A DNA stretch of 40,411 bases from Sideroxydans sp. (GTDB lineage Bacteria; Pseudomonadota; Gammaproteobacteria; Burkholderiales; Gallionellaceae), in assembly GCA_020053195.1 (NCBI GenBank), contig JAGVNQ010000118.1, positions 1 to 40,411 on the forward strand, read 5' to 3'. Of this stretch, positions 27,159-35,152 are shown piece by piece. The notes under the pieces were generated by a model. That model saw only the letters and a program-made list of their open reading frames with translations. It was not told the DNA's origin and did not search any database. Made by a program: the position numbers and the translations under genes. The stretch's first letter is position 1. Each line of letters opens with the position of its first letter.

Positions 27159-28469
27159 TTAGTGCAAAGCCAGATTTACCCGGTTCAAATCGGCTTCGTT
27201 CAATTGGCCGACCGCTGCCTTCAAACGCAAGTGGCTGACCAGATAGTTGTATTGCGCCTGATACAAATCGCGGCGGGTGGCAAACAGTTGTTGCTGCGCG
27301 TTGAGCACATCCAGACTGGTGCGCACGCCGACTTCCTGCCCCAGCTTGCTGGCTTCGAGCAGGCTCTGGCTGGATTTCAAAGCTTGTTGCAACGCCTGCA
27401 CTTGCGCGATCCCGCTGACTACGCCGAGATACGCCTGACGGGTTTGCAACTCGACGTTGCGCCGCGTGTTTTCCAAATCCTGTTTGGCTTTTTCGCGGTT
27501 GGCGCTGGCTTCGCGCCATTTGGATTGGGTCGCGCCGCCCTGAAACAGCGGCAGGTTGAGCTGCACGCCGATCGAGGTGCTAGTCGTGTCGGTGGCACCG
27601 TAAATGCCACCGCTCGCCTTGTTCTTGGCGTAGTTCGCCACCAGATCAACCGTGGGCAAATGGCCGCCGCGATTGCGCGCCACTTCCTGCTCCGCCAACT
27701 CGAAACCCGCCTGCGCCATGGCGATTTGATAATTGCCGAGCAGCGCATCGGACACCCATTTTTGCGCATCGGAAGGCTCGGGTGTTTCCAGTTTAAACGC
27801 CGCGCCCAGCACGTTCAGCTCTTTGACTTCGCCGTTGACCAATTGCTGCAACGTGCGCTGTTTGACTTCGAGATTGTTCGCGGCCACCAGCTCCTGTGCC
27901 ACGATCAAGTCGTAACGTGCTTGCGCTTCGTGCGTGTCGGTGATGGTGGCTGTGCCAACTTCAAAATTGCGCTTGGCCTGCTCCAATTGTTGCGCGATGG
28001 CGGACTTCTGCGCGGCGGTGAGTTGCACCGTGTCCTGCGCGATCAGCACGTCGAAATAAGTTTGCGCGCTGCGCAGGATGACATCCTGTTCGGCCAGTTT
28101 GAACTGCGCTTCGGAAATCGCCACCTGCAACTCGGCCTGGTTATACATCGCCCAGTTCTGTTCGCGGAACAGCGGCTGCACCAGGCTCACACCGTAACCG
28201 TTGGTATTGTATTGGCCGCTGTAGGATGAGGCACCCGAATAAGTCAGATCGTTGCTGGTCGTGTTCGCGCTCAGATTGACGCTGGGCAGCAGCAGTGAGC
28301 GTCCCTGCGTCAGCTTCTCCTGTCCCGCCTGCTGCGCCGCGCGCGCGGATGCGAACACCGCGTCCTGGCTTTGTGCCGCGTGATAAATCTCGATCAGATC
28401 GACCGCTTGCGCTTGGGTCTGAAAACCCAGCGCCAGCAACACGCTTAAAGCTGTTTTGGTCAGTTTCAT
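27159..28469 (-). CDS. tolC: TolC-family outer membrane channel
   Basis: Signal peptide ending AQA-VDL, QPLF, RNFEVG, GVRTSLDVLNAQ; ATG 28469 with GGAG RBS. Confidence 0.93.
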   Translation of the reverse strand: MKLTKTALSVLLALGFQTQAQAVDLIEIYHAAQSQDAVFASARAAQQAGQEKLTQGRSLLLPSVNLSANTTSNDLTYSGASSYSGQYNTNGYGVSLVQPLFREQNWAMYNQAELQVAISEAQFKLAEQDVILRSAQTYFDVLIAQDTVQLTAAQKSAIAQQLEQAKRNFEVGTATITDTHEAQARYDLIVAQELVAANNLEVKQRTLQQLVNGEVKELNVLGAAFKLETPEPSDAQKWVSDALLGNYQIAMAQAGFELAEQEVARNRGGHLPTVDLVANYAKNKASGGIYGATDTTSTSIGVQLNLPLFQGGATQSKWREASANREKAKQDLENTRRNVELQTRQAYLGVVSGIAQVQALQQALKSSQSLLEASKLGQEVGVRTSLDVLNAQQQLFATRRDLYQAQYNYLVSHLRLKAAVGQLNEADLNRVNLALH

Positions 28470-28568
28470 TTGTTGCTCCAATATTAGAATTCGCTAATAT
28501 TACACGGTAACGGGGGACGATACAACCGGGTGCCACTACCCGATCCAACTCTATAACTTCAATTGAAA

Positions 28569-28614: not shown

Positions 28615-29265
28615 TTAAAACACGAACCGTCTCGGTTGCAACGCATTCTTCAGCGGGGCAACATCGGTCTCGAACAAGGTGGTGGTTTCAAACAGTTCGG
28701 GCGTAACGCGCGTAATCAGTTGCGCCTGCATGGCGGGCGCATCGCCCACCACCACGAACAAACGTCCGCCGACTTTCAACTGGTTTTTATAGGCTTCGGG
28801 CAGCATCGGCACCGAACCGGTGAGCACGATGGCATCGTATTCGGATTCGCCCCATTGCCGCGCGCCATCGCCGACTTGCAGGGTGACATTCTCGATATGC
28901 GCAGTGGCCAGATTGCGCGCCGCGCCCGCACTCAATTCCGCGTCGATTTCCACACTGGTGACTTGCCTGGCCATTTTCGCCAGCAAGGCCGTCACATAGC
29001 CGCTGCCGCTGCCCACTTCCAGCACGCTGTCGGTCGCCTTAAGGCTCAATGCCTGCAACGCGCGCGCTTCCAGTTTCGGCGACCACATGCTCGCGCCGTG
29101 ACCCAGCGAAATTTCGGTATCCACAAAAGCCAGCGCCTTGCTGGCCACCGGCACGAACTGTTCGCGGCGCACCTGTTTGAGCATATCCAAAACACGTGCA
29201 TCCAGCACATCCCATGGGCGAATCTGCTGCTCGATCATATTGAAGCGTGCTTGTTCCAAATTCAT
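28615..29265 (-). CDS. pcm: Protein-L-isoaspartate O-methyltransferase
   Basis: ARFNMIEQQIRPWDV, VLEVGSGSGY, YDAIVLTGS, LKVGGRL; ATG 29265 with GGGAG RBS; usual neighbour of tolC. Confidence 0.92.
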   Translation of the reverse strand: MNLEQARFNMIEQQIRPWDVLDARVLDMLKQVRREQFVPVASKALAFVDTEISLGHGASMWSPKLEARALQALSLKATDSVLEVGSGSGYVTALLAKMARQVTSVEIDAELSAGAARNLATAHIENVTLQVGDGARQWGESEYDAIVLTGSVPMLPEAYKNQLKVGGRLFVVVGDAPAMQAQLITRVTPELFETTTLFETDVAPLKNALQPRRFVF

Positions 29266-29351: not shown

Positions 29352-32300
29352 TCAAGCATTAGCGGAGCCGGATCGGTTAAACCGGCTGCGCATCCATTCA
29401 ATCAAGTCATCCACATAGGTATAAACCACCGGGATCACCAGCAGGCTGAGGAAAGTCGAGGTAATCAAGCCGCCGATCACCACAATCGCCATGGGCGAAC
29501 GGAAACTGCCGTCGCCCATGCCCATGTCCAGCGCCACCGGCAGCATGCCCGCGCCCATCGCCATGGTGGTCATCACGATGGGACGCACGCGCTTCTTGCA
29601 CGCATCGATCAGCGCTTCGGCGCGACTCATGCCACGCTCGCGGCGCGAAACGATGGCGTATTCCACCAGCAGGATGGAGTTCTTGGTGGCGATGCCCATC
29701 AGCATGATGAGGCCGATCATCGACGGCATGGAAATAGCCGTGCCGGTCAAATACAAGGCCAGAAACGCGCCGGGAATCGACAGCACCAGCGCGCCTAAAA
29801 TGGTGGCGGGCTGCATGAAGTCCTTGAACAGCAACACCAGCACAATGTAGATACACATCACGCCGGTGAACATCGCCAAGCTGAAACTCTCGAACAATTC
29901 GTTCATCGCCTCGGCATCACCGATGGGCGCGACCGCCACACCGTCCGGCAAATTTTTCAGCGAAGGCAAGGCCAGCGCCGCCGCCTGTACTTCACCCAAA
30001 GGCTGGCCGGCCAGTTCAATATCGAAAGTGATGTTGCGCTGGCGGTCGTAGCGATCGATTTGCGCCGGGCCGCTTTCCAGCGTCAGCGTCGCCACATTGC
30101 CCAGCATCACCGGCCCGTGCGTGCCTTGCACCACCAGACGCGACAACAGACCGATGTCCTGTCGCGCGTCGTCGCGCAGCTTGACGATGATGGGCAATTG
30201 CCGCTCCGGCAAATTGAGCTTGGCCAGCGACTGGTCATAGTCGCCGTTGGTCGCCACGCGCAGCGTTTCGGCGATGGCGCTGGAGGTCACGCCCAGATCG
30301 GCGGCGCGCGCGAAGTCGGGACGCACCACCAACTCGGGACGCAGGATGCTGGAATTGGACACCACGTTGCCGATGCCGTGCAGGGTGCGCAATTCCTGCC
30401 CCACCTTCAACGCTTGCTCGTTGAGCAGCAGGCTGTTCTCGCTGGTCAGCACCAACTGGTATTTGTCCGCCGACGCGCCCATGCCCACTTTTACGCGCAC
30501 GCCCGGCAACACCGTCATCGCGTCGCGCAAATCGTTTTCGATCTGCTGTTTCTGCACGCGCTCGTCGCGCGGTTTCAACTGGATGGACAGTGTGGCGGTG
30601 CGCGCATCGGGCGTGCCCGTCGGCTCAAACGCGTTGCCGCCCGATGCGCCGCCGCCAATGGCGGTGTAAACCAGCGTCACGTTCGGGTTCTGCATCACAA
30701 TGGCGCGCGCTTCCTCGGACAGCGCCAGCGTTTGCTCGAACTTGCTGCCCGGCGGCAACGTGATCGTCACCTGGGTTTGCGACTGGTTGTCTTTGGGCTG
30801 AAACGCGGTTTGCAATGTCCCGGCCAAGGCGAACGAGCCGAAGAAAAATGCAGCGGTCACCAGCAACGTGGTTTTGCGATGATGCAAACACCATTGCGCC
30901 CATTTGAGATAAATCTCGATCCAGCCGGGTGTGGCATGCGCCACGCGCGGACGCAGGAAATAGGCGGCCATCATCGGGGTCAGCATACGCGCCACCACCA
31001 GCGAAAACAGCACGGCCACCGCCGCCGTCCAGCCGAATTGCACGAAGAATTTGCCCGCGATGCCGCTCATGAACGCGGTCGGCAAAAACACCGCGACCAG
31101 CGTGAAAGTGGTGGCGATCACCGCCATGCCGATTTCGTCGGCGGCTTCCATCGCCGCCTGATATGGGGTTTTGCCCATTTCCAGATGACGCATGATGTTT
31201 TCAATTTCGACGATGGCATCGTCCACCAGCACGCCCACCACCAGCGACAGTGCAAGTAACGTCACGATGTTGATGGAAAAGCCGAACAGATACATTAGCG
31301 CGAAAGTGGGCACCACGGCCAGCGGCAGCGCGGTCGCGGCCACAATGGTGGCGCGCGTGTTGCGCAGGAAAAAGATCACCACGATCACCGCCAGCAACGA
31401 GCCTTCGAAGATCATTTCCATCGAGCCTTTGTAGGTCTCATAAACCATATTGACGGTGTTGAACACCAGCTCCACGGTGAACTCGGGGTGGGTCGCTTTC
31501 AACTCCGCCAATGCTTTGGCTACGCCGTCACCCACCGCCACATCGCCCGCGCCCAACGAGCGCACGATTTCAAAACCAACCACGGGCTTGCCGTCGTGCA
31601 GCGCCGCCGAACGGCGCTCGGCGATGGTGTCGCTCACCTGCGCCACTTGATCCAGGCGCACCGTGCGCCCGTCGCGCAAACCGATTTCCATGCGCGCCAA
31701 TTCTTCCGCCGACTTTACCGTGGCCACGGTGCGCACGGATTGCTCCATGCCGCCCAGATCGGTGCGCCCGCCCGGCGCTTCCTGCTGGATCTGGCGCAAC
31801 TGGCCGGAGATTTCAGCGGCGGTAAGGTTCAGCGCCAACATCTTGGTCGGGTCCAGCTCTACGCGCACTTGGCGCGTCACGCCGCCCACGCGGTTGACCG
31901 CGCCCACACCTTTCACGCCCAGCAGCAATTTGGTAATGTTGTTGTCCACATACCAGGACAATTCTTCCTCGCTCATGTCGGGCGCGAAAATGGTGTAAGT
32001 CAGAATCGGCTTGCCGCTCAGCTGCACTTTGTTGATGCTGGGATCGAGCATCTCGCGCGGCAATTCGCCGCGTATGCGCGACATGGTGGAGCGCACGTCT
32101 TCCAGCGCTTCGCGCGAATCGCGCTCCAGACGGAACTCGGCGGAGATAATCGCCGTGCCGTCTTTGACCTGGGTATAAAGATGTTTAAGCCCCTGCGCGC
32201 TGGCCAGCGCGTTCTCGATCTTGCGCGCCACCTCGACTTCCATCTGGTCCGGCGACGCGCCCGGCAAGGTTGCCGTCACTGTCACCATGGGCAGGTCGAT

Positions 32301-32417
32301 GTCGGGGAACATCTGGATTTTCATGGCCTTGAACGCCATGATGCCCATGAACGAGAGCATGATAAAAGCCAGTACCGCCGGAATCGGGTTGCGGATGGAC
32401 CAGGCTGAAACGTTCAT
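29352..32417 (-). CDS. RND efflux transporter permease (AcrB/AcrD/AcrF family)
   Basis: 1021 aa; SIRNP N-terminus, VDDAIVEIENI, TKNSILLVE, RVRPIVMTT proton-relay motifs. Confidence 0.95.
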   Translation of the reverse strand: MNVSAWSIRNPIPAVLAFIMLSFMGIMAFKAMKIQMFPDIDLPMVTVTATLPGASPDQMEVEVARKIENALASAQGLKHLYTQVKDGTAIISAEFRLERDSREALEDVRSTMSRIRGELPREMLDPSINKVQLSGKPILTYTIFAPDMSEEELSWYVDNNITKLLLGVKGVGAVNRVGGVTRQVRVELDPTKMLALNLTAAEISGQLRQIQQEAPGGRTDLGGMEQSVRTVATVKSAEELARMEIGLRDGRTVRLDQVAQVSDTIAERRSAALHDGKPVVGFEIVRSLGAGDVAVGDGVAKALAELKATHPEFTVELVFNTVNMVYETYKGSMEMIFEGSLLAVIVVIFFLRNTRATIVAATALPLAVVPTFALMYLFGFSINIVTLLALSLVVGVLVDDAIVEIENIMRHLEMGKTPYQAAMEAADEIGMAVIATTFTLVAVFLPTAFMSGIAGKFFVQFGWTAAVAVLFSLVVARMLTPMMAAYFLRPRVAHATPGWIEIYLKWAQWCLHHRKTTLLVTAAFFFGSFALAGTLQTAFQPKDNQSQTQVTITLPPGSKFEQTLALSEEARAIVMQNPNVTLVYTAIGGGASGGNAFEPTGTPDARTATLSIQLKPRDERVQKQQIENDLRDAMTVLPGVRVKVGMGASADKYQLVLTSENSLLLNEQALKVGQELRTLHGIGNVVSNSSILRPELVVRPDFARAADLGVTSSAIAETLRVATNGDYDQSLAKLNLPERQLPIIVKLRDDARQDIGLLSRLVVQGTHGPVMLGNVATLTLESGPAQIDRYDRQRNITFDIELAGQPLGEVQAAALALPSLKNLPDGVAVAPIGDAEAMNELFESFSLAMFTGVMCIYIVLVLLFKDFMQPATILGALVLSIPGAFLALYLTGTAISMPSMIGLIMLMGIATKNSILLVEYAIVSRRERGMSRAEALIDACKKRVRPIVMTTMAMGAGMLPVALDMGMGDGSFRSPMAIVVIGGLITSTFLSLLVIPVVYTYVDDLIEWMRSRFNRSGSANA

Positions 32418-33346
32418 TTCACCACCTGCACGACATCGCCTTCGGTCAAAAATGCGCCGCCGCTTTCCACCACGGTTTCATTCGCCTTCAAGCCCTGTTT
32501 GATCTCGATGCGGTCGCCAGTGCGCTGGCCGATTTTTACCGGTCGTTCATGCACGCGCTTGTCCGCATCAACCACCAGCACGTAAGTCGTGCTGCCGCGT
32601 TGCATCACGGCGGATTGCGGCAACGACGACAAAGTTCTTTTGCCGCCGCTGACATCGAACGTGCCGCGCGCATAAACGCCCGCGATGATGCCCGAACTAT
32701 CCGGCAACGAAACCAGCGCGTAGCCGTAACGCGTTTGCGCACTCACCGACGGCGAAATTGCGCGCACCGTGCCCTTGATGACACGCCCTTCACCCACGGT
32801 AATGTCGGCGCTCATGCCTTTGCGCAACAACATCAATTCTTCCGCCGTCAGTTCGGCGCGCCATTCCAGACGGCCTTTGCGGATCAGGCGAAACACTTCC
32901 ACGCCCGGTTGCGACATGGAACCCACGTTGGCGTTGGCCGCCGAGATGACCCCGGAATCGGGAGCCACAATGCGGCTTTGCGTGGCGCGCGCGGCAGCGT
33001 CGTCGGCGCTGCGCGCAAAATTGTCCAGCGTCAGCAACACGTCGCCTTCTTTCACGTGATCGCCGATGCTGACCATCACTTCCGCGATGCGCAGACCCTG
33101 CACCTGCATGCTGATGATGGCTTCCTGCCACGGCAGAATGCTGCCGTTGGCGGTCAAGGTGCGCGTCCATTTGTCGTCGCGCAACAGCGTGGTGCGCACG
33201 GTCAGCGCGGGGCGGCTAACCGCTGGCGCAGGTACAGCCTGTTCCGCCTTGCTGTTACCGGCCAGCCAAAACGCGCCGCCTGCCAGCAGCAGCCCGGACA
33301 AAGCCAATTTCAGGAATAACGAATTTTGTTGGATGGCAACACGCAT
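32414..33346 (-). CDS. RND periplasmic adaptor (membrane fusion protein), short form lacking the alpha-helical hairpin
   Basis: N-terminal TM anchor, lipoyl halves GDHVKEGDVLLTLD and IVAPDSGVIS, beta-barrel, LPQSAV, GLKANETVV; ATGA overlap with the RND gene. Confidence 0.9.
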   Translation of the reverse strand: MRVAIQQNSLFLKLALSGLLLAGGAFWLAGNSKAEQAVPAPAVSRPALTVRTTLLRDDKWTRTLTANGSILPWQEAIISMQVQGLRIAEVMVSIGDHVKEGDVLLTLDNFARSADDAAARATQSRIVAPDSGVISAANANVGSMSQPGVEVFRLIRKGRLEWRAELTAEELMLLRKGMSADITVGEGRVIKGTVRAISPSVSAQTRYGYALVSLPDSSGIIAGVYARGTFDVSGGKRTLSSLPQSAVMQRGSTTYVLVVDADKRVHERPVKIGQRTGDRIEIKQGLKANETVVESGGAFLTEGDVVQVVK

Positions 33347-33375
33347 GTTTTTTCTACCTTTAAACCGTATTTTTG

Positions 33376-34128
33376 TTATTTGCTTTTGGCCTGCTTCGCC
33401 GCTGTCCGGCGTTTCGCTTCGGCTTCGATGATCGCCATGGCGTATTCGACCAGCCTTTGCACCATGGCCTCCTTTGCCTTTTTTCCGGCGATCAGGTTTG
33501 GCACAAAAGTCTCGACTGCCATGCGATTATGGAAATACACCGTCGCCAGACCGAACACCGCAAAAACCAGTCTATCCACCTCCGCGTCCGGTTTTTTCAG
33601 CCCGAACTCGCGGCACAACAGCGCCTGCATTTTTTCGTGATTGGGGCGAAACGCCTGCACCATGGCATCGCCCAACACCCCGCTGGGCTCGGCATCCTCG
33701 CGCGCATGCAAGCGCATGAACAGCCTCTGCATCGGGTCTTCCTCGGCCGCTGACGGGAACAGCCAGCCGTAGAACCCCTGCAATGCCTCTCGCGCCGTGA
33801 CTTGCGCAATATCCATCGTGACCAGGGTGTTGCACTCTTCAAGGAAGGGCAGACGGAACACCTCGCGGTACAACTCGGCCTTGTCGCCGTAGTAATAGTG
33901 AATGGAGGCGAGGTTGACCCCGGCGCGTTTGCAAATCTCGCGCGTGGTCGCTGCATGGTAGCCGGACTCGGCAAACACCTCGGTCGCCGCTTGCAGCAAG
34001 CGCCAGCGCGTTTCTTCCTGCGCGTTCGGTTCATGCCCGAGCACGCGCTGCGCGGTTTGCAGCAACAGGCATGGATTTTGTGTTTTAGCAGTCACGTCGG
34101 GTTTGGAAATTTGTGAAAGGATGCGCAC
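33376..34128 (-). CDS. TetR-family regulator with CecR/YbiH-like (DUF1956) C-terminal domain
   Basis: TRWRLLQAATEVFAESGY…TREICKRAGVNLASIHYYYGDKAELY HTH; true start probably downstream of 34128 (e.g. GTG 34095). Confidence 0.88.
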   Translation of the reverse strand: MRILSQISKPDVTAKTQNPCLLLQTAQRVLGHEPNAQEETRWRLLQAATEVFAESGYHAATTREICKRAGVNLASIHYYYGDKAELYREVFRLPFLEECNTLVTMDIAQVTAREALQGFYGWLFPSAAEEDPMQRLFMRLHAREDAEPSGVLGDAMVQAFRPNHEKMQALLCREFGLKKPDAEVDRLVFAVFGLATVYFHNRMAVETFVPNLIAGKKAKEAMVQRLVEYAMAIIEAEAKRRTAAKQAKSK

Positions 34129-34164
34129 CTTATTTCAGTCGCTTGCTTAAGTCAAGCGACTGAA
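34127..34164 (-). promoter_or_regulatory. Promoter overlapped by a TetR-type operator
   Basis: Perfect 12-bp inverted repeat TTCAGTCGCTTG-N7-CAAGCGACTGAA (34134-34164) overlapping TTGACT-N17-TAAGGT on the - strand. Confidence 0.7.
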
Positions 34165-34184
34165 TTGGAGCGGTCGCGCATTGA

Positions 34185-34246
34185 CTGTAGGAGCCAGCTT
34201 GCTGGCGAAGATATGTATTCATTCGCCAGCAAGCTGGCTCCTACAG
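34185..34246. repeat. REP doublet (REPIN), GTAG family
   Basis: Two inverted copies of CTGTAGGAGCCAGCTTGCTGGCGAA (25 bp, each with an internal palindrome) separated by 12 bp. Confidence 0.88.
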
Positions 34247-34250
34247 CATC

Positions 34251-34571
34251 TCAAACCTCATCCTGCTTGGGTTTGCTACTGCAACATCCGCTCATGCCCG
34301 CCTGAAATTTTTCGCGTTGCTCCGGTGTCATGTTTTTCAGATGATGGTGATGCATACGCTTGTGCATGCCGCCGTGCCCGCGAAATCCGCCAAACAATAT
34401 CTTGCTCAATACCAATATACCCAGCGCTTGCACATAGCCGATTTCATGCACCCCGACAAACAAGTTCGGCAACAACCAGTTCCACAACGCCATCACCACA
34501 AACCCCAGCGCCAAAATTCCCGCCACCACCATCACCACAATCTTGAAAACTTTTGCTTTGTTCATACACAT
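34251..34571 (-). CDS. Small membrane protein co-transcribed with the ECF sigma factor
   Basis: Two hydrophobic segments (VMALWNWLLP, QALGILVLSKILFGG), MTPEQREKF, AAGGAG RBS, 11 bp after the sigma stop. Confidence 0.8.
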   Translation of the reverse strand: MCMNKAKVFKIVVMVVAGILALGFVVMALWNWLLPNLFVGVHEIGYVQALGILVLSKILFGGFRGHGGMHKRMHHHHLKNMTPEQREKFQAGMSGCCSSKPKQDEV

Positions 34572-34582
34572 AACCGCTCTCC

Positions 34583-35152
34583 TTAAAGAATAAATTCGTC
34601 ATAAATCGTTTGCAGCCGCGCCCGCAAATGCAGCACTGCATAGCGTTTGCGCGCCAGCAGCGTGTTCATACTCACACCGCTTTCAAACGCCAACTCTTTG
34701 AAACTGCGCCCGTCCAGCTCGTGGGCGATGAACACATCGCGCTGCTCCCCCGGCAATTCCTCCAGCGCGGCCAGCAACTCGCGCAACAACACCTTGCGCG
34801 CATATTCCGCTTCCGGCCCAGCCTGAGCCGACGGCAACACTTCATCCAGCCAATGCCCGTCGTCGTCCGCCATTTCCGGCAACTGCACTTCGCGCTTCTT
34901 GCGGAAGCGGTCGATGATGCGGTTGCGCGCCACGCGAAACAACCACGCGCCCACCTGCTCAATCGGCTCTGGCAGCCGATAGTTCTCCACATACTCGAAG
35001 AACACATCCTGCAAAATATCCTCTGCCTCGTCGGCATCCGGCACGCGCCGCCGGATAAAATTCCGCAACCGCCCGCGCTCGCGCGAGACGGTTTCTGTGA
35101 TGTGTTTATCCTGTTCAGCCATCAGCGCAAGTTGGGTGAGCGTCGTGTCCAT
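34583..35152 (-). CDS. ECF (sigma-70 group 4) RNA polymerase sigma factor
   Basis: Region 2 EAEDILQDVF…WLFRVARNRIIDRFRK; region 4 LEELPGEQRDVF…SFKELA…TLLARKRYA. Confidence 0.93.
   Translation of the reverse strand: MDTTLTQLALMAEQDKHITETVSRERGRLRNFIRRRVPDADEAEDILQDVFFEYVENYRLPEPIEQVGAWLFRVARNRIIDRFRKKREVQLPEMADDDGHWLDEVLPSAQAGPEAEYARKVLLRELLAALEELPGEQRDVFIAHELDGRSFKELAFESGVSMNTLLARKRYAVLHLRARLQTIYDEFIL

What the first reader, a model, noticed from the sequence alone, without database searches (positions are those of the whole stretch)
32414..33346. RND adaptor protein with no alpha-helical hairpin
Seen: the two lipoyl half-motifs (GDHVKEGDVLLTLD, ending residue 108; IVAPDSGVIS, starting residue 126) are joined by only 17 residues (NFARSADDAAARATQSR, 32972-33022). 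The frame is intact and coupled to an intact RND gene. Established: in AcrA/MexA-type adaptors a coiled-coil hairpin of several dozen residues sits here and docks and opens TolC; Borrelia BesA is the known hairpin-less exception. Inference: this could be a pump that exports only to the periplasm, uses another partner or engages TolC differently. It could also be a recent loss-of-function deletion.
Basis: partly seen in the sequence, partly recalled or inferred. Interest (0 to 1): 0.75.

Follow-up and report, generated by a model that had tools for sequence, protein, structure and literature searches.

The report
Hairpin-less RND adaptor of Gallionellaceae
The adaptor protein of this efflux pump lacks the helical arm that normally grips and opens the outer-membrane channel TolC; the armless form is conserved across a family of iron-oxidising bacteria whose close relatives still carry the arm, and it likely still works with an ordinary TolC, which would give a natural with-and-without pair for testing how such pumps assemble.

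Summary
Observation confirmed: only 17 residues (32972-33022) join the lipoyl halves. It is no private deletion. All 120 best homologues have 13-23 residue linkers, and 60 of 151 family genomes (6 genera; named relatives are Gallionellaceae) carry the short form under purifying selection (dN/dS 0.01-0.18), beside an RND with intact proton-relay motifs. Orthologues carry a fixed 78-residue hairpin; two are 76-80% identical to this protein. One old deletion fits the trees. The model (pLDDT 90) has no hairpin, and its best fold match is BesA (19% identity; convergent). Neither the RND nor the TolC tip shows a compensating change, and no free hairpin gene was found. tolC lies just downstream in 41 of 70 informative short loci, often as an extra copy 5-50 bp behind the RND, against 0 of 11 hairpin-bearing orthologues. 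Best reading (0.55, inferred): a BesABC-like tripartite pump docking an unmodified TolC on the lipoyl ring. Main rival (0.28): export to the periplasm only. The kind is known (BesA), and this scan noted hairpin-less adaptors before in other lineages (unchecked). The value here is the matched natural pair.

The parts
32414..33346 (-). RND periplasmic adaptor (MFP), 310 aa: membrane-proximal, beta-barrel and lipoyl domains, no alpha-helical hairpin
   Evidence: (TIGR01730 145.6 bits, cut-off 94.9)
32972..33022 (-). 17-aa linker (residues 109-125) in place of the 78-aa hairpin. Ends conserved (N109, F110, R112; Q123, R125); middle variable and S/A/D/T-rich
   Evidence: pLDDT 62 at 111-120, no helix
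33245..33322 (-). N-terminal hydrophobic helix followed by conserved S/G32-x-A34 and E/K35; possibly a cleaved signal peptide (inferred from the pattern; no predictor run); no Cys, so no lipobox, in this protein
29352..32417 (-). RND transporter, 1021 aa, intact, with D399/D400, K912, R943, T950 relay-type motifs
33376..34128 (-). TetR-family regulator with CecR_C domain (start probably at 34095, where homologue alignments begin)
34134..34164 (-). Conserved inverted repeat with a TTGACT box upstream of tetR; likely operator/promoter of the cassette; single copy in the assembled genome
29321..29349 (-). sigma70-like promoter match between the RND stop and pcm (1 found, 3.3 expected in shuffles; weak)
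28615..29265 (-). pcm, protein-L-isoaspartate O-methyltransferase
27159..28481 (-). tolC, the only close TolC found in the 87%-complete genome; ordinary family-type tips

Best explanation
This is a conserved, selected adaptor that lost its 61-residue hairpin, likely once and long ago in Gallionellaceae, and it likely still forms a proton-driven tripartite pump with its RND and an ordinary TolC, whose tip would dock directly on the adaptor's lipoyl ring and short loops, as proposed for BesABC. Shown: hairpin absent; gene pair intact and under purifying selection; relay motifs kept; tolC repeatedly placed and kept right behind the RND. Inferred: a single origin; a TetR-controlled operon for small hydrophobic compounds; a hexameric adaptor ring on the RND trimer (from known pumps); contact through the newly conserved T106-L-D-N109-F110-x-R112 apex; a shorter membrane-to-membrane span; TolC use itself. 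The substrate is not known.
For: (1) tolC lies within about 4.6 kb downstream in 41 of 70 informative short loci (20 more end too soon), against 0 of 11 informative close hairpin-bearing orthologue loci. (2) In 23 of 40 linked loci (window aside) pcm is gone and tolC starts an estimated 5-50 bp after the RND stop. The reverse, pcm kept without tolC, was seen once with enough sequence (L153). (3) 4 of 5 such genomes keep a separate pcm-tolC elsewhere, so the copy behind the pump is extra. In G127 the two copies are nearly identical, and linked copies fall in several places on the TolC tree. (4) dN/dS is 0.013-0.18 for the adaptor core in 19 close pairs and 0.02-0.19 for the RND in 16 pairs. 73 of 74 complete RNDs beside short adaptors keep all relay motifs. 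(5) New conservation at the loop base: T106 100%, N109 100%, F110 90%, R112 85% of 120 short proteins, while these positions vary in 121 hairpin-bearing ones. (6) Precedent: BesABC is co-transcribed and its loss lowers MICs (PMC3807786, PMC2279261). S. maltophilia tolC-pcm-smeRo-smeO-smeP has the same gene set and needs TolC (review PMC4557615; orthology not tested).
Against: 29 of 70 informative short loci have no adjacent channel gene. Linkage tracks the TetR cassette (39 of 46 with TetR, 2 of 24 without) and kin are not independent. In the window, tolC is the housekeeping copy and may have its own promoter. Extra TolC copies also occur behind unrelated TetR genes. TolC tips are the same in genomes with short, long or no such adaptor (61 sequences), unlike the altered BesC gate. 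The RND shows no docking-domain change or insertion (75 vs 11 sequences). The loop middle varies from 12 to 23 aa. Solved pumps join only through hairpin tips, with no RND-channel contact (PMC8868134). The conserved loop base could simply stabilise the lipoyl domain.
Confidence: 0.55

Rival explanations
1. Channel-independent pump. The RND and its armless adaptor move substrate from the inner membrane or cytoplasm into the periplasm only; the adaptor just stabilises or activates the RND. The hairpin became dispensable, and tolC sits nearby as a passenger of the TetR cassette.
For: No compensating change in TolC or RND. Loop length and sequence drift. 29 of 70 short loci have no channel gene. 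Both RND types pair with short and long adaptors, at least 3 changes forced by starred branches, as if the arm did not matter. Canonical geometry needs hairpins.
Against: An extra tolC is kept 5-50 bp behind the RND while pcm is dropped. The operator occurs only once in this genome, so no other pump is seen to share the regulon. Close long orthologues keep the hairpin, its R-L-S tip motif and purifying selection, so the ancestral pump was tripartite.
Confidence: 0.28
2. Borrowed arm. The short adaptor forms mixed rings with a hairpin-bearing adaptor from another operon (TriAB-like division of labour), or an unlinked accessory protein bridges to TolC.
For: The genome encodes at least six other adaptors with hairpin-profile hits.
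Against: No free-standing hairpin ORF among 42,748 frames of G000 or 3,736 ORFs of the short loci. No conserved extra gene beside the pair. Three hairpins would not seal a six-helix channel (inference from known structures).
Confidence: 0.13
3. Recent loss-of-function deletion, decaying remnant or assembly error.
For: A few copies are broken: a TAG in G030, a two-piece match in G183, frameshifts in L169.
Against: 60 of 151 family genomes carry it. dN/dS is at most 0.18. Independent contigs span the junction. The short forms are down to 62% identical to each other, so the loss is old.
Confidence: 0.02

Closest known systems
BesA of Borrelia burgdorferi BesABC (PDB 4KKS/4KKT/4KKU; Greene 2013 PMC3807786; Bunikis 2008 PMC2279261)
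   Same: Three-domain adaptor with a short flexible loop instead of the hairpin. Top fold match: Foldseek E 2.7e-18, VIA Z 19.4, rmsd 3.8 over 250 residues. Encoded with an RND and often a TolC-type channel.
   Different: Only 19-20% identical, and BesA is not among the sequence hits: independent origin from a 78-aa-hairpin betaproteobacterial subfamily. Loop 12-23 aa vs 9. No lipobox here; BesA is lipidated. TolC here is family-typical and in a genome with hairpin-bearing adaptors, whereas BesC has an altered gate and Borrelia has no other adaptor. Hairpin-bearing orthologues at 76-80% identity exist here.
AcrA/MexA-type RND adaptors (TIGR01730 RND_mfp)
   Same: [quoted passage not shown]
   Different: No hairpin, no R-L-S tip motif, so tip-to-tip docking as in cryo-EM structures is impossible.
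Stenotrophomonas maltophilia tolC-pcm-smeRo-smeO-smeP cluster (review PMC4557615; primary paper not held)
   Same: Same five-gene set (TetR, adaptor, RND, pcm, tolC); there the pump needs TolC.
   Different: Orthology not tested and SmeO hairpin status not checked; a lead only.
Hairpin-bearing orthologues in the same family (L051, L170, L052-L061)
   Same: Same adaptor-RND pair; RND 68-87% identical to the window's; L051/L170 adaptors 76-80% identical.
   Different: 78-aa hairpin with R-x3-L-x6-S motif; no adjacent TetR or tolC.

Membership tests
RND periplasmic adaptor (MFP) family | profile score above the curated cut-off | tested here: met
   TIGR01730 145.6 bits vs 94.9; PF13437
RND periplasmic adaptor (MFP) family | [quoted passage not shown] | tested here: met
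   model pLDDT 89.7; matches cover residues 45-310
RND periplasmic adaptor (MFP) family | encoded with an intact RND transporter | tested here: met
   ATGA overlap; ACR_tran 746 bits; relay motifs kept
canonical AcrA/MexA-type adaptor | alpha-helical hairpin with RLS tip between the lipoyl halves | tested here: not met
   17-aa loop, no helix
BesA-like hairpin-less adaptor (architecture) | short loop joins the lipoyl halves; other three domains kept | tested here: met
BesA orthologue (descent) | closer in sequence to BesA than to hairpin-bearing adaptors | tested here: not met
   19-20% to BesA vs 76-80% to hairpin-bearing L051/L170; BesA absent from the PDB sequence hits
BesABC-type pump | co-transcribed with its channel gene | tested here: inconclusive
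   tolC 5-50 bp behind the RND in 23 loci, but pcm and a possible promoter lie between them in the window; no transcript data
BesABC-type pump | channel with a disrupted periplasmic gate, as in BesC | tested here: not met
   T152/D153, R367 and D371 equivalents are kept in all 61 TolCs. The Y362 equivalent is mostly Q/H and the D374 equivalent N, family-wide whatever the adaptor (E. coli numbering of D153, Y362, R367, D371, D374, T152 recalled)
BesABC-type pump | physical tripartite assembly and channel-dependent efflux | not testable with these tools
   needs bench work
SmeOP-TolCsm | sequence orthology to SmeO/SmeP | not tested
   no named sequence available; only gene content compared

The most novel reading that the evidence does not exclude
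One unmodified TolC serves both canonical hairpin adaptors and an armless one in the same cell, so TolC can be recruited and opened with no hairpin at all, by the lipoyl ring and its N-F-x-R loop. The armless segment spread by recombination into other alleles (L071-73), and near-identical orthologues differ just by the arm, so the hairpin is an optional spacer in this pump.
Probability: 0.4. Interest if true: 0.75.

Novelty: new variant of a known kind. Interest (0 to 1): 0.5.

Why it matters
All solved tripartite RND pumps connect to the outer-membrane channel only through adaptor hairpin tips. Reviews call BesA the biggest challenge to that model (PMC4446572), and BesB and BesC could not be expressed or crystallised (PMC3807786). 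This family offers a non-pathogen system with natural controls: adaptors 76-80% identical that differ by the 61-residue arm, the same RND type and the same ordinary TolC. Testing them would show whether TolC can be opened without a hairpin, or whether an RND-adaptor pair can work as a periplasmic exporter. Either answer bears on pump assembly models. The architecture itself is not new, which caps the score.

Tried and rejected
First AlphaFold2 run with an 18-sequence alignment failed (pLDDT 38.6) and was not used. Complex prediction (three copies of TolC 140-422 plus adaptor 72-160) gave 'no answer', score 0.00; it is not used as evidence either way. Sequencing runs: no holder had more than 0.10 of the words and no RNA holder was listed; no piece spans the whole stretch. 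The ESM Atlas held neither P0001 nor P0006. Lin 2014 (SmeOP) is not held. Hairpin supplied in trans: nothing found; the assembly is 87% complete. Compensating RND change: only 2 columns differ (523, 537), both outside the docking loops. BesC-like TolC change: none specific to short-adaptor genomes. Several independent losses: not needed; a single short clade is not rejected (AU p 0.42; p 0.68 and higher likelihood on the central segment). Mosaic origin of L071-73 is suggested by segment identities and a starred branch, but the AU test does not reach significance (p 0.064). Regain versus retention of the hairpin in L051/L170 could not be decided. A wider TetR regulon: only one operator copy in G000. 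Five paper searches listed no description of this Gallionellaceae adaptor; most subscription papers and Greene's Supplemental Fig. 2 (list of other hairpin-less sequences) were not seen. The first large tree is a quick tree because the careful search did not finish. The script failed at a final file write after printing its results.

Full report
Observation. The minus-strand ORF 32414-33346 encodes 310 aa. Its two lipoyl half-motifs are joined by residues 109-125, bases 33022-32972. Its stop overlaps the start of a 1021-aa RND gene. Pfam and NCBIfam call the neighbourhood ECF sigma - small ORF - TetR/CecR_C - adaptor - RND - pcm - tolC. An AlphaFold2 model from 150 sequences (pLDDT 89.7) has no helix in the linker and only one long helix, the N-terminal one at 9-29. 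Its best structural matches are the BesA entries (Foldseek E 2.7e-18, 19% identity; VIA Z 19.4, rmsd 3.8 over 250 residues).

It is a family trait. The 120 best of 3,850 protein hits all have 13-23 aa linkers. Named relatives are Sideroxydans, Gallionella and other Gallionellaceae. Of 151 family genomes, 96 match at 1e-27. Of these, 59 match in one piece, one more (G183) in two overlapping pieces, and 36 only as a split match. The short form spans 6 genus codes and 38 of 39 genomes of the window's genus. I measured 140 fetched loci directly: 111 have 12-23 aa, 27 have exactly 78 aa, one has 64 aa, and one was unscorable (duplicates included). Outside the family, all 22 matches among 389 genomes of the order begin at query residue 111-119, the split pattern. 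Among the 150 best clusters at 50% identity, 4 are short, 139 have 51-92 aa (121 exactly 78), one has 260 and 6 were unscored. So the subfamily norm is a 78-aa linker, with a full R-x3-L/I-x6-S tip motif in 86 of 121, and this lineage lost about 61 residues. Related contigs from three studies span the junction without an insertion.

History. After removing 20 duplicates and 3 broken copies, 90 short and 28 long adaptors remain. Long forms are basal, and the state needs 3 changes on a quick tree, with one origin not excluded. Two long adaptors, L051 and L170, are 76-80% identical to the window's. They sit among the short ones, but a single short clade is not rejected (AU p 0.42), and on the central segment it is the better tree. 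They are therefore the surviving sister state or a regain. L071-73 have a short-type centre inside flanks like those of long forms (starred branch, AU p 0.064), which suggests the armless segment moved by recombination. Two RND types, about 82-87% and 71-73% identical to the window's, each pair with both adaptor forms.

It is functional by sequence criteria. In 19 close pairs that I chose from the tree, adaptor-core dN/dS is 0.013-0.18. RND dN/dS is 0.02-0.19 in 16 pairs; five long pairs give 0.09-0.17. 73 of 74 complete RNDs beside short adaptors keep the DD, K, R and T relay-type motifs (equivalence to AcrB residues recalled). The loop middle drifts, but its base became conserved: T106 100%, N109 100%, F110 90%, R112 85% of 120, against variable residues in long forms. 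A conserved S/G-x-A at 32-34 suggests a cleaved signal peptide (inference). A conserved dyad upstream of tetR occurs once in the genome.

How could it reach the outside? Established: cryo-EM pumps join channel and adaptor tip to tip through six hairpins, with no RND-channel contact (PMC8868134, passages). BesA is called incompatible with that model, and BesC has a disrupted gate (PMC4446572, passages). Here nothing compensates visibly. TolC tips are alike in 61 sequences from genomes with short, long or no such adaptor. RNDs beside short and close long adaptors (75 vs 11) differ at 2 columns outside the docking loops. No free hairpin gene was found. G000 has one close TolC and at least six other adaptors with hairpin hits. 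Yet gene order ties the pump to TolC. tolC follows in 41 of 70 informative short loci and in 0 of 11 close long loci. In 23 of 40 linked loci it starts about 5-50 bp after the RND stop with pcm gone. In 4 of 5 such genomes a second pcm-tolC exists elsewhere. In 5 of 5 genomes with the window's RND-pcm-tolC order, the linked copy is the only close TolC. Against over-reading this: linkage follows the TetR cassette (39 of 46 vs 2 of 24); kin are not independent; extra TolC copies also sit behind other TetR genes; and a weak promoter match precedes pcm in the window.

Verdict on mechanism. I put 0.55 on a BesABC-like tripartite pump in which an ordinary TolC docks on the lipoyl ring and short loops, giving a shorter assembly. 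I put 0.28 on export to the periplasm without a channel, 0.13 on a borrowed arm or bridging partner, and 0.02 on a dead or artefactual gene. Docking, opening, stoichiometry and substrate are all inferred.

Comparison and novelty. It is a member of the RND adaptor family, not a canonical AcrA-type adaptor. It works like BesA in architecture but is not its orthologue. Greene 2013 (abstract, methods, results and discussion read; supplements not seen) already notes hairpin-less sequences in other spirochetes and rarely in proteobacteria. Bunikis 2008, Symmons 2015, the 2021 Chem Rev review, PMC4557615 and PMC8868134 were read as passages only. Five searches listed no paper on this adaptor. Unchecked notes of this scan report hairpin-less adaptors in Bradyrhizobium, Verrucomicrobia, Bdellovibrionota and metal pumps, and none on this sequence. 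The kind therefore recurs. What is particular here is a traceable loss with near-identical arm-bearing orthologues and an unmodified TolC. New variant of a known kind; interest 0.5.

Noticed in passing
window 34134-34164 (-): 31-bp inverted repeat with a TTGACT box upstream of tetR. Its core 10-mer is present in 55 of 63 upstream regions, including the paralogous TetR-OMF-long adaptor-RND cassette (L064-L066); single copy in G000. Likely operator.
   Followed up: partly
L066 51-7462 vs window 29352-35152: The same ECF sigma - small ORF - TetR head stands before two different pumps: a NodT-type OMF + long adaptor + distant RND in L066, and the short adaptor + RND here. This suggests pump replacement behind a fixed regulator.
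   Followed up: partly
L205, L207, L210, L211: Second near-equal TolC copies sit behind other TetR or cytochrome c'-like genes in several family genomes; TolC duplication is frequent in this family.
   Followed up: partly
L044, L047, L071-L073, L081 vs window 29352-32417: Two RND types (long internal branch, 0.32) coexist in the family and are shuffled against adaptor type and genus; differences are spread over the periplasmic domains.
   Followed up: partly
window 33245-33322: Conserved S/G-x-A then E/K after the hydrophobic helix (A34 93%, S/G32 97% of 120): the adaptor may be a soluble periplasmic protein rather than anchored.
   Followed up: partly
window 27159-28481: Family TolC has mostly Q/H at the E. 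coli Y362 position and N at D374 in all 61 sequences. A weaker gate could have permitted hairpin loss; not compared with other Betaproteobacteria.
   Followed up: no
G030:C1:138929-139834; G183:C110:70968-71850; L169: A few short-adaptor copies are broken (TAG, two-piece match, frameshifts); assembly error or real decay not distinguished.
   Followed up: no
L071 7225-9534, L075 7262-9700, L053 1400-2422: MlaE/MlaD-type genes lie next to the pump in three loci; probably incidental.
   Followed up: no
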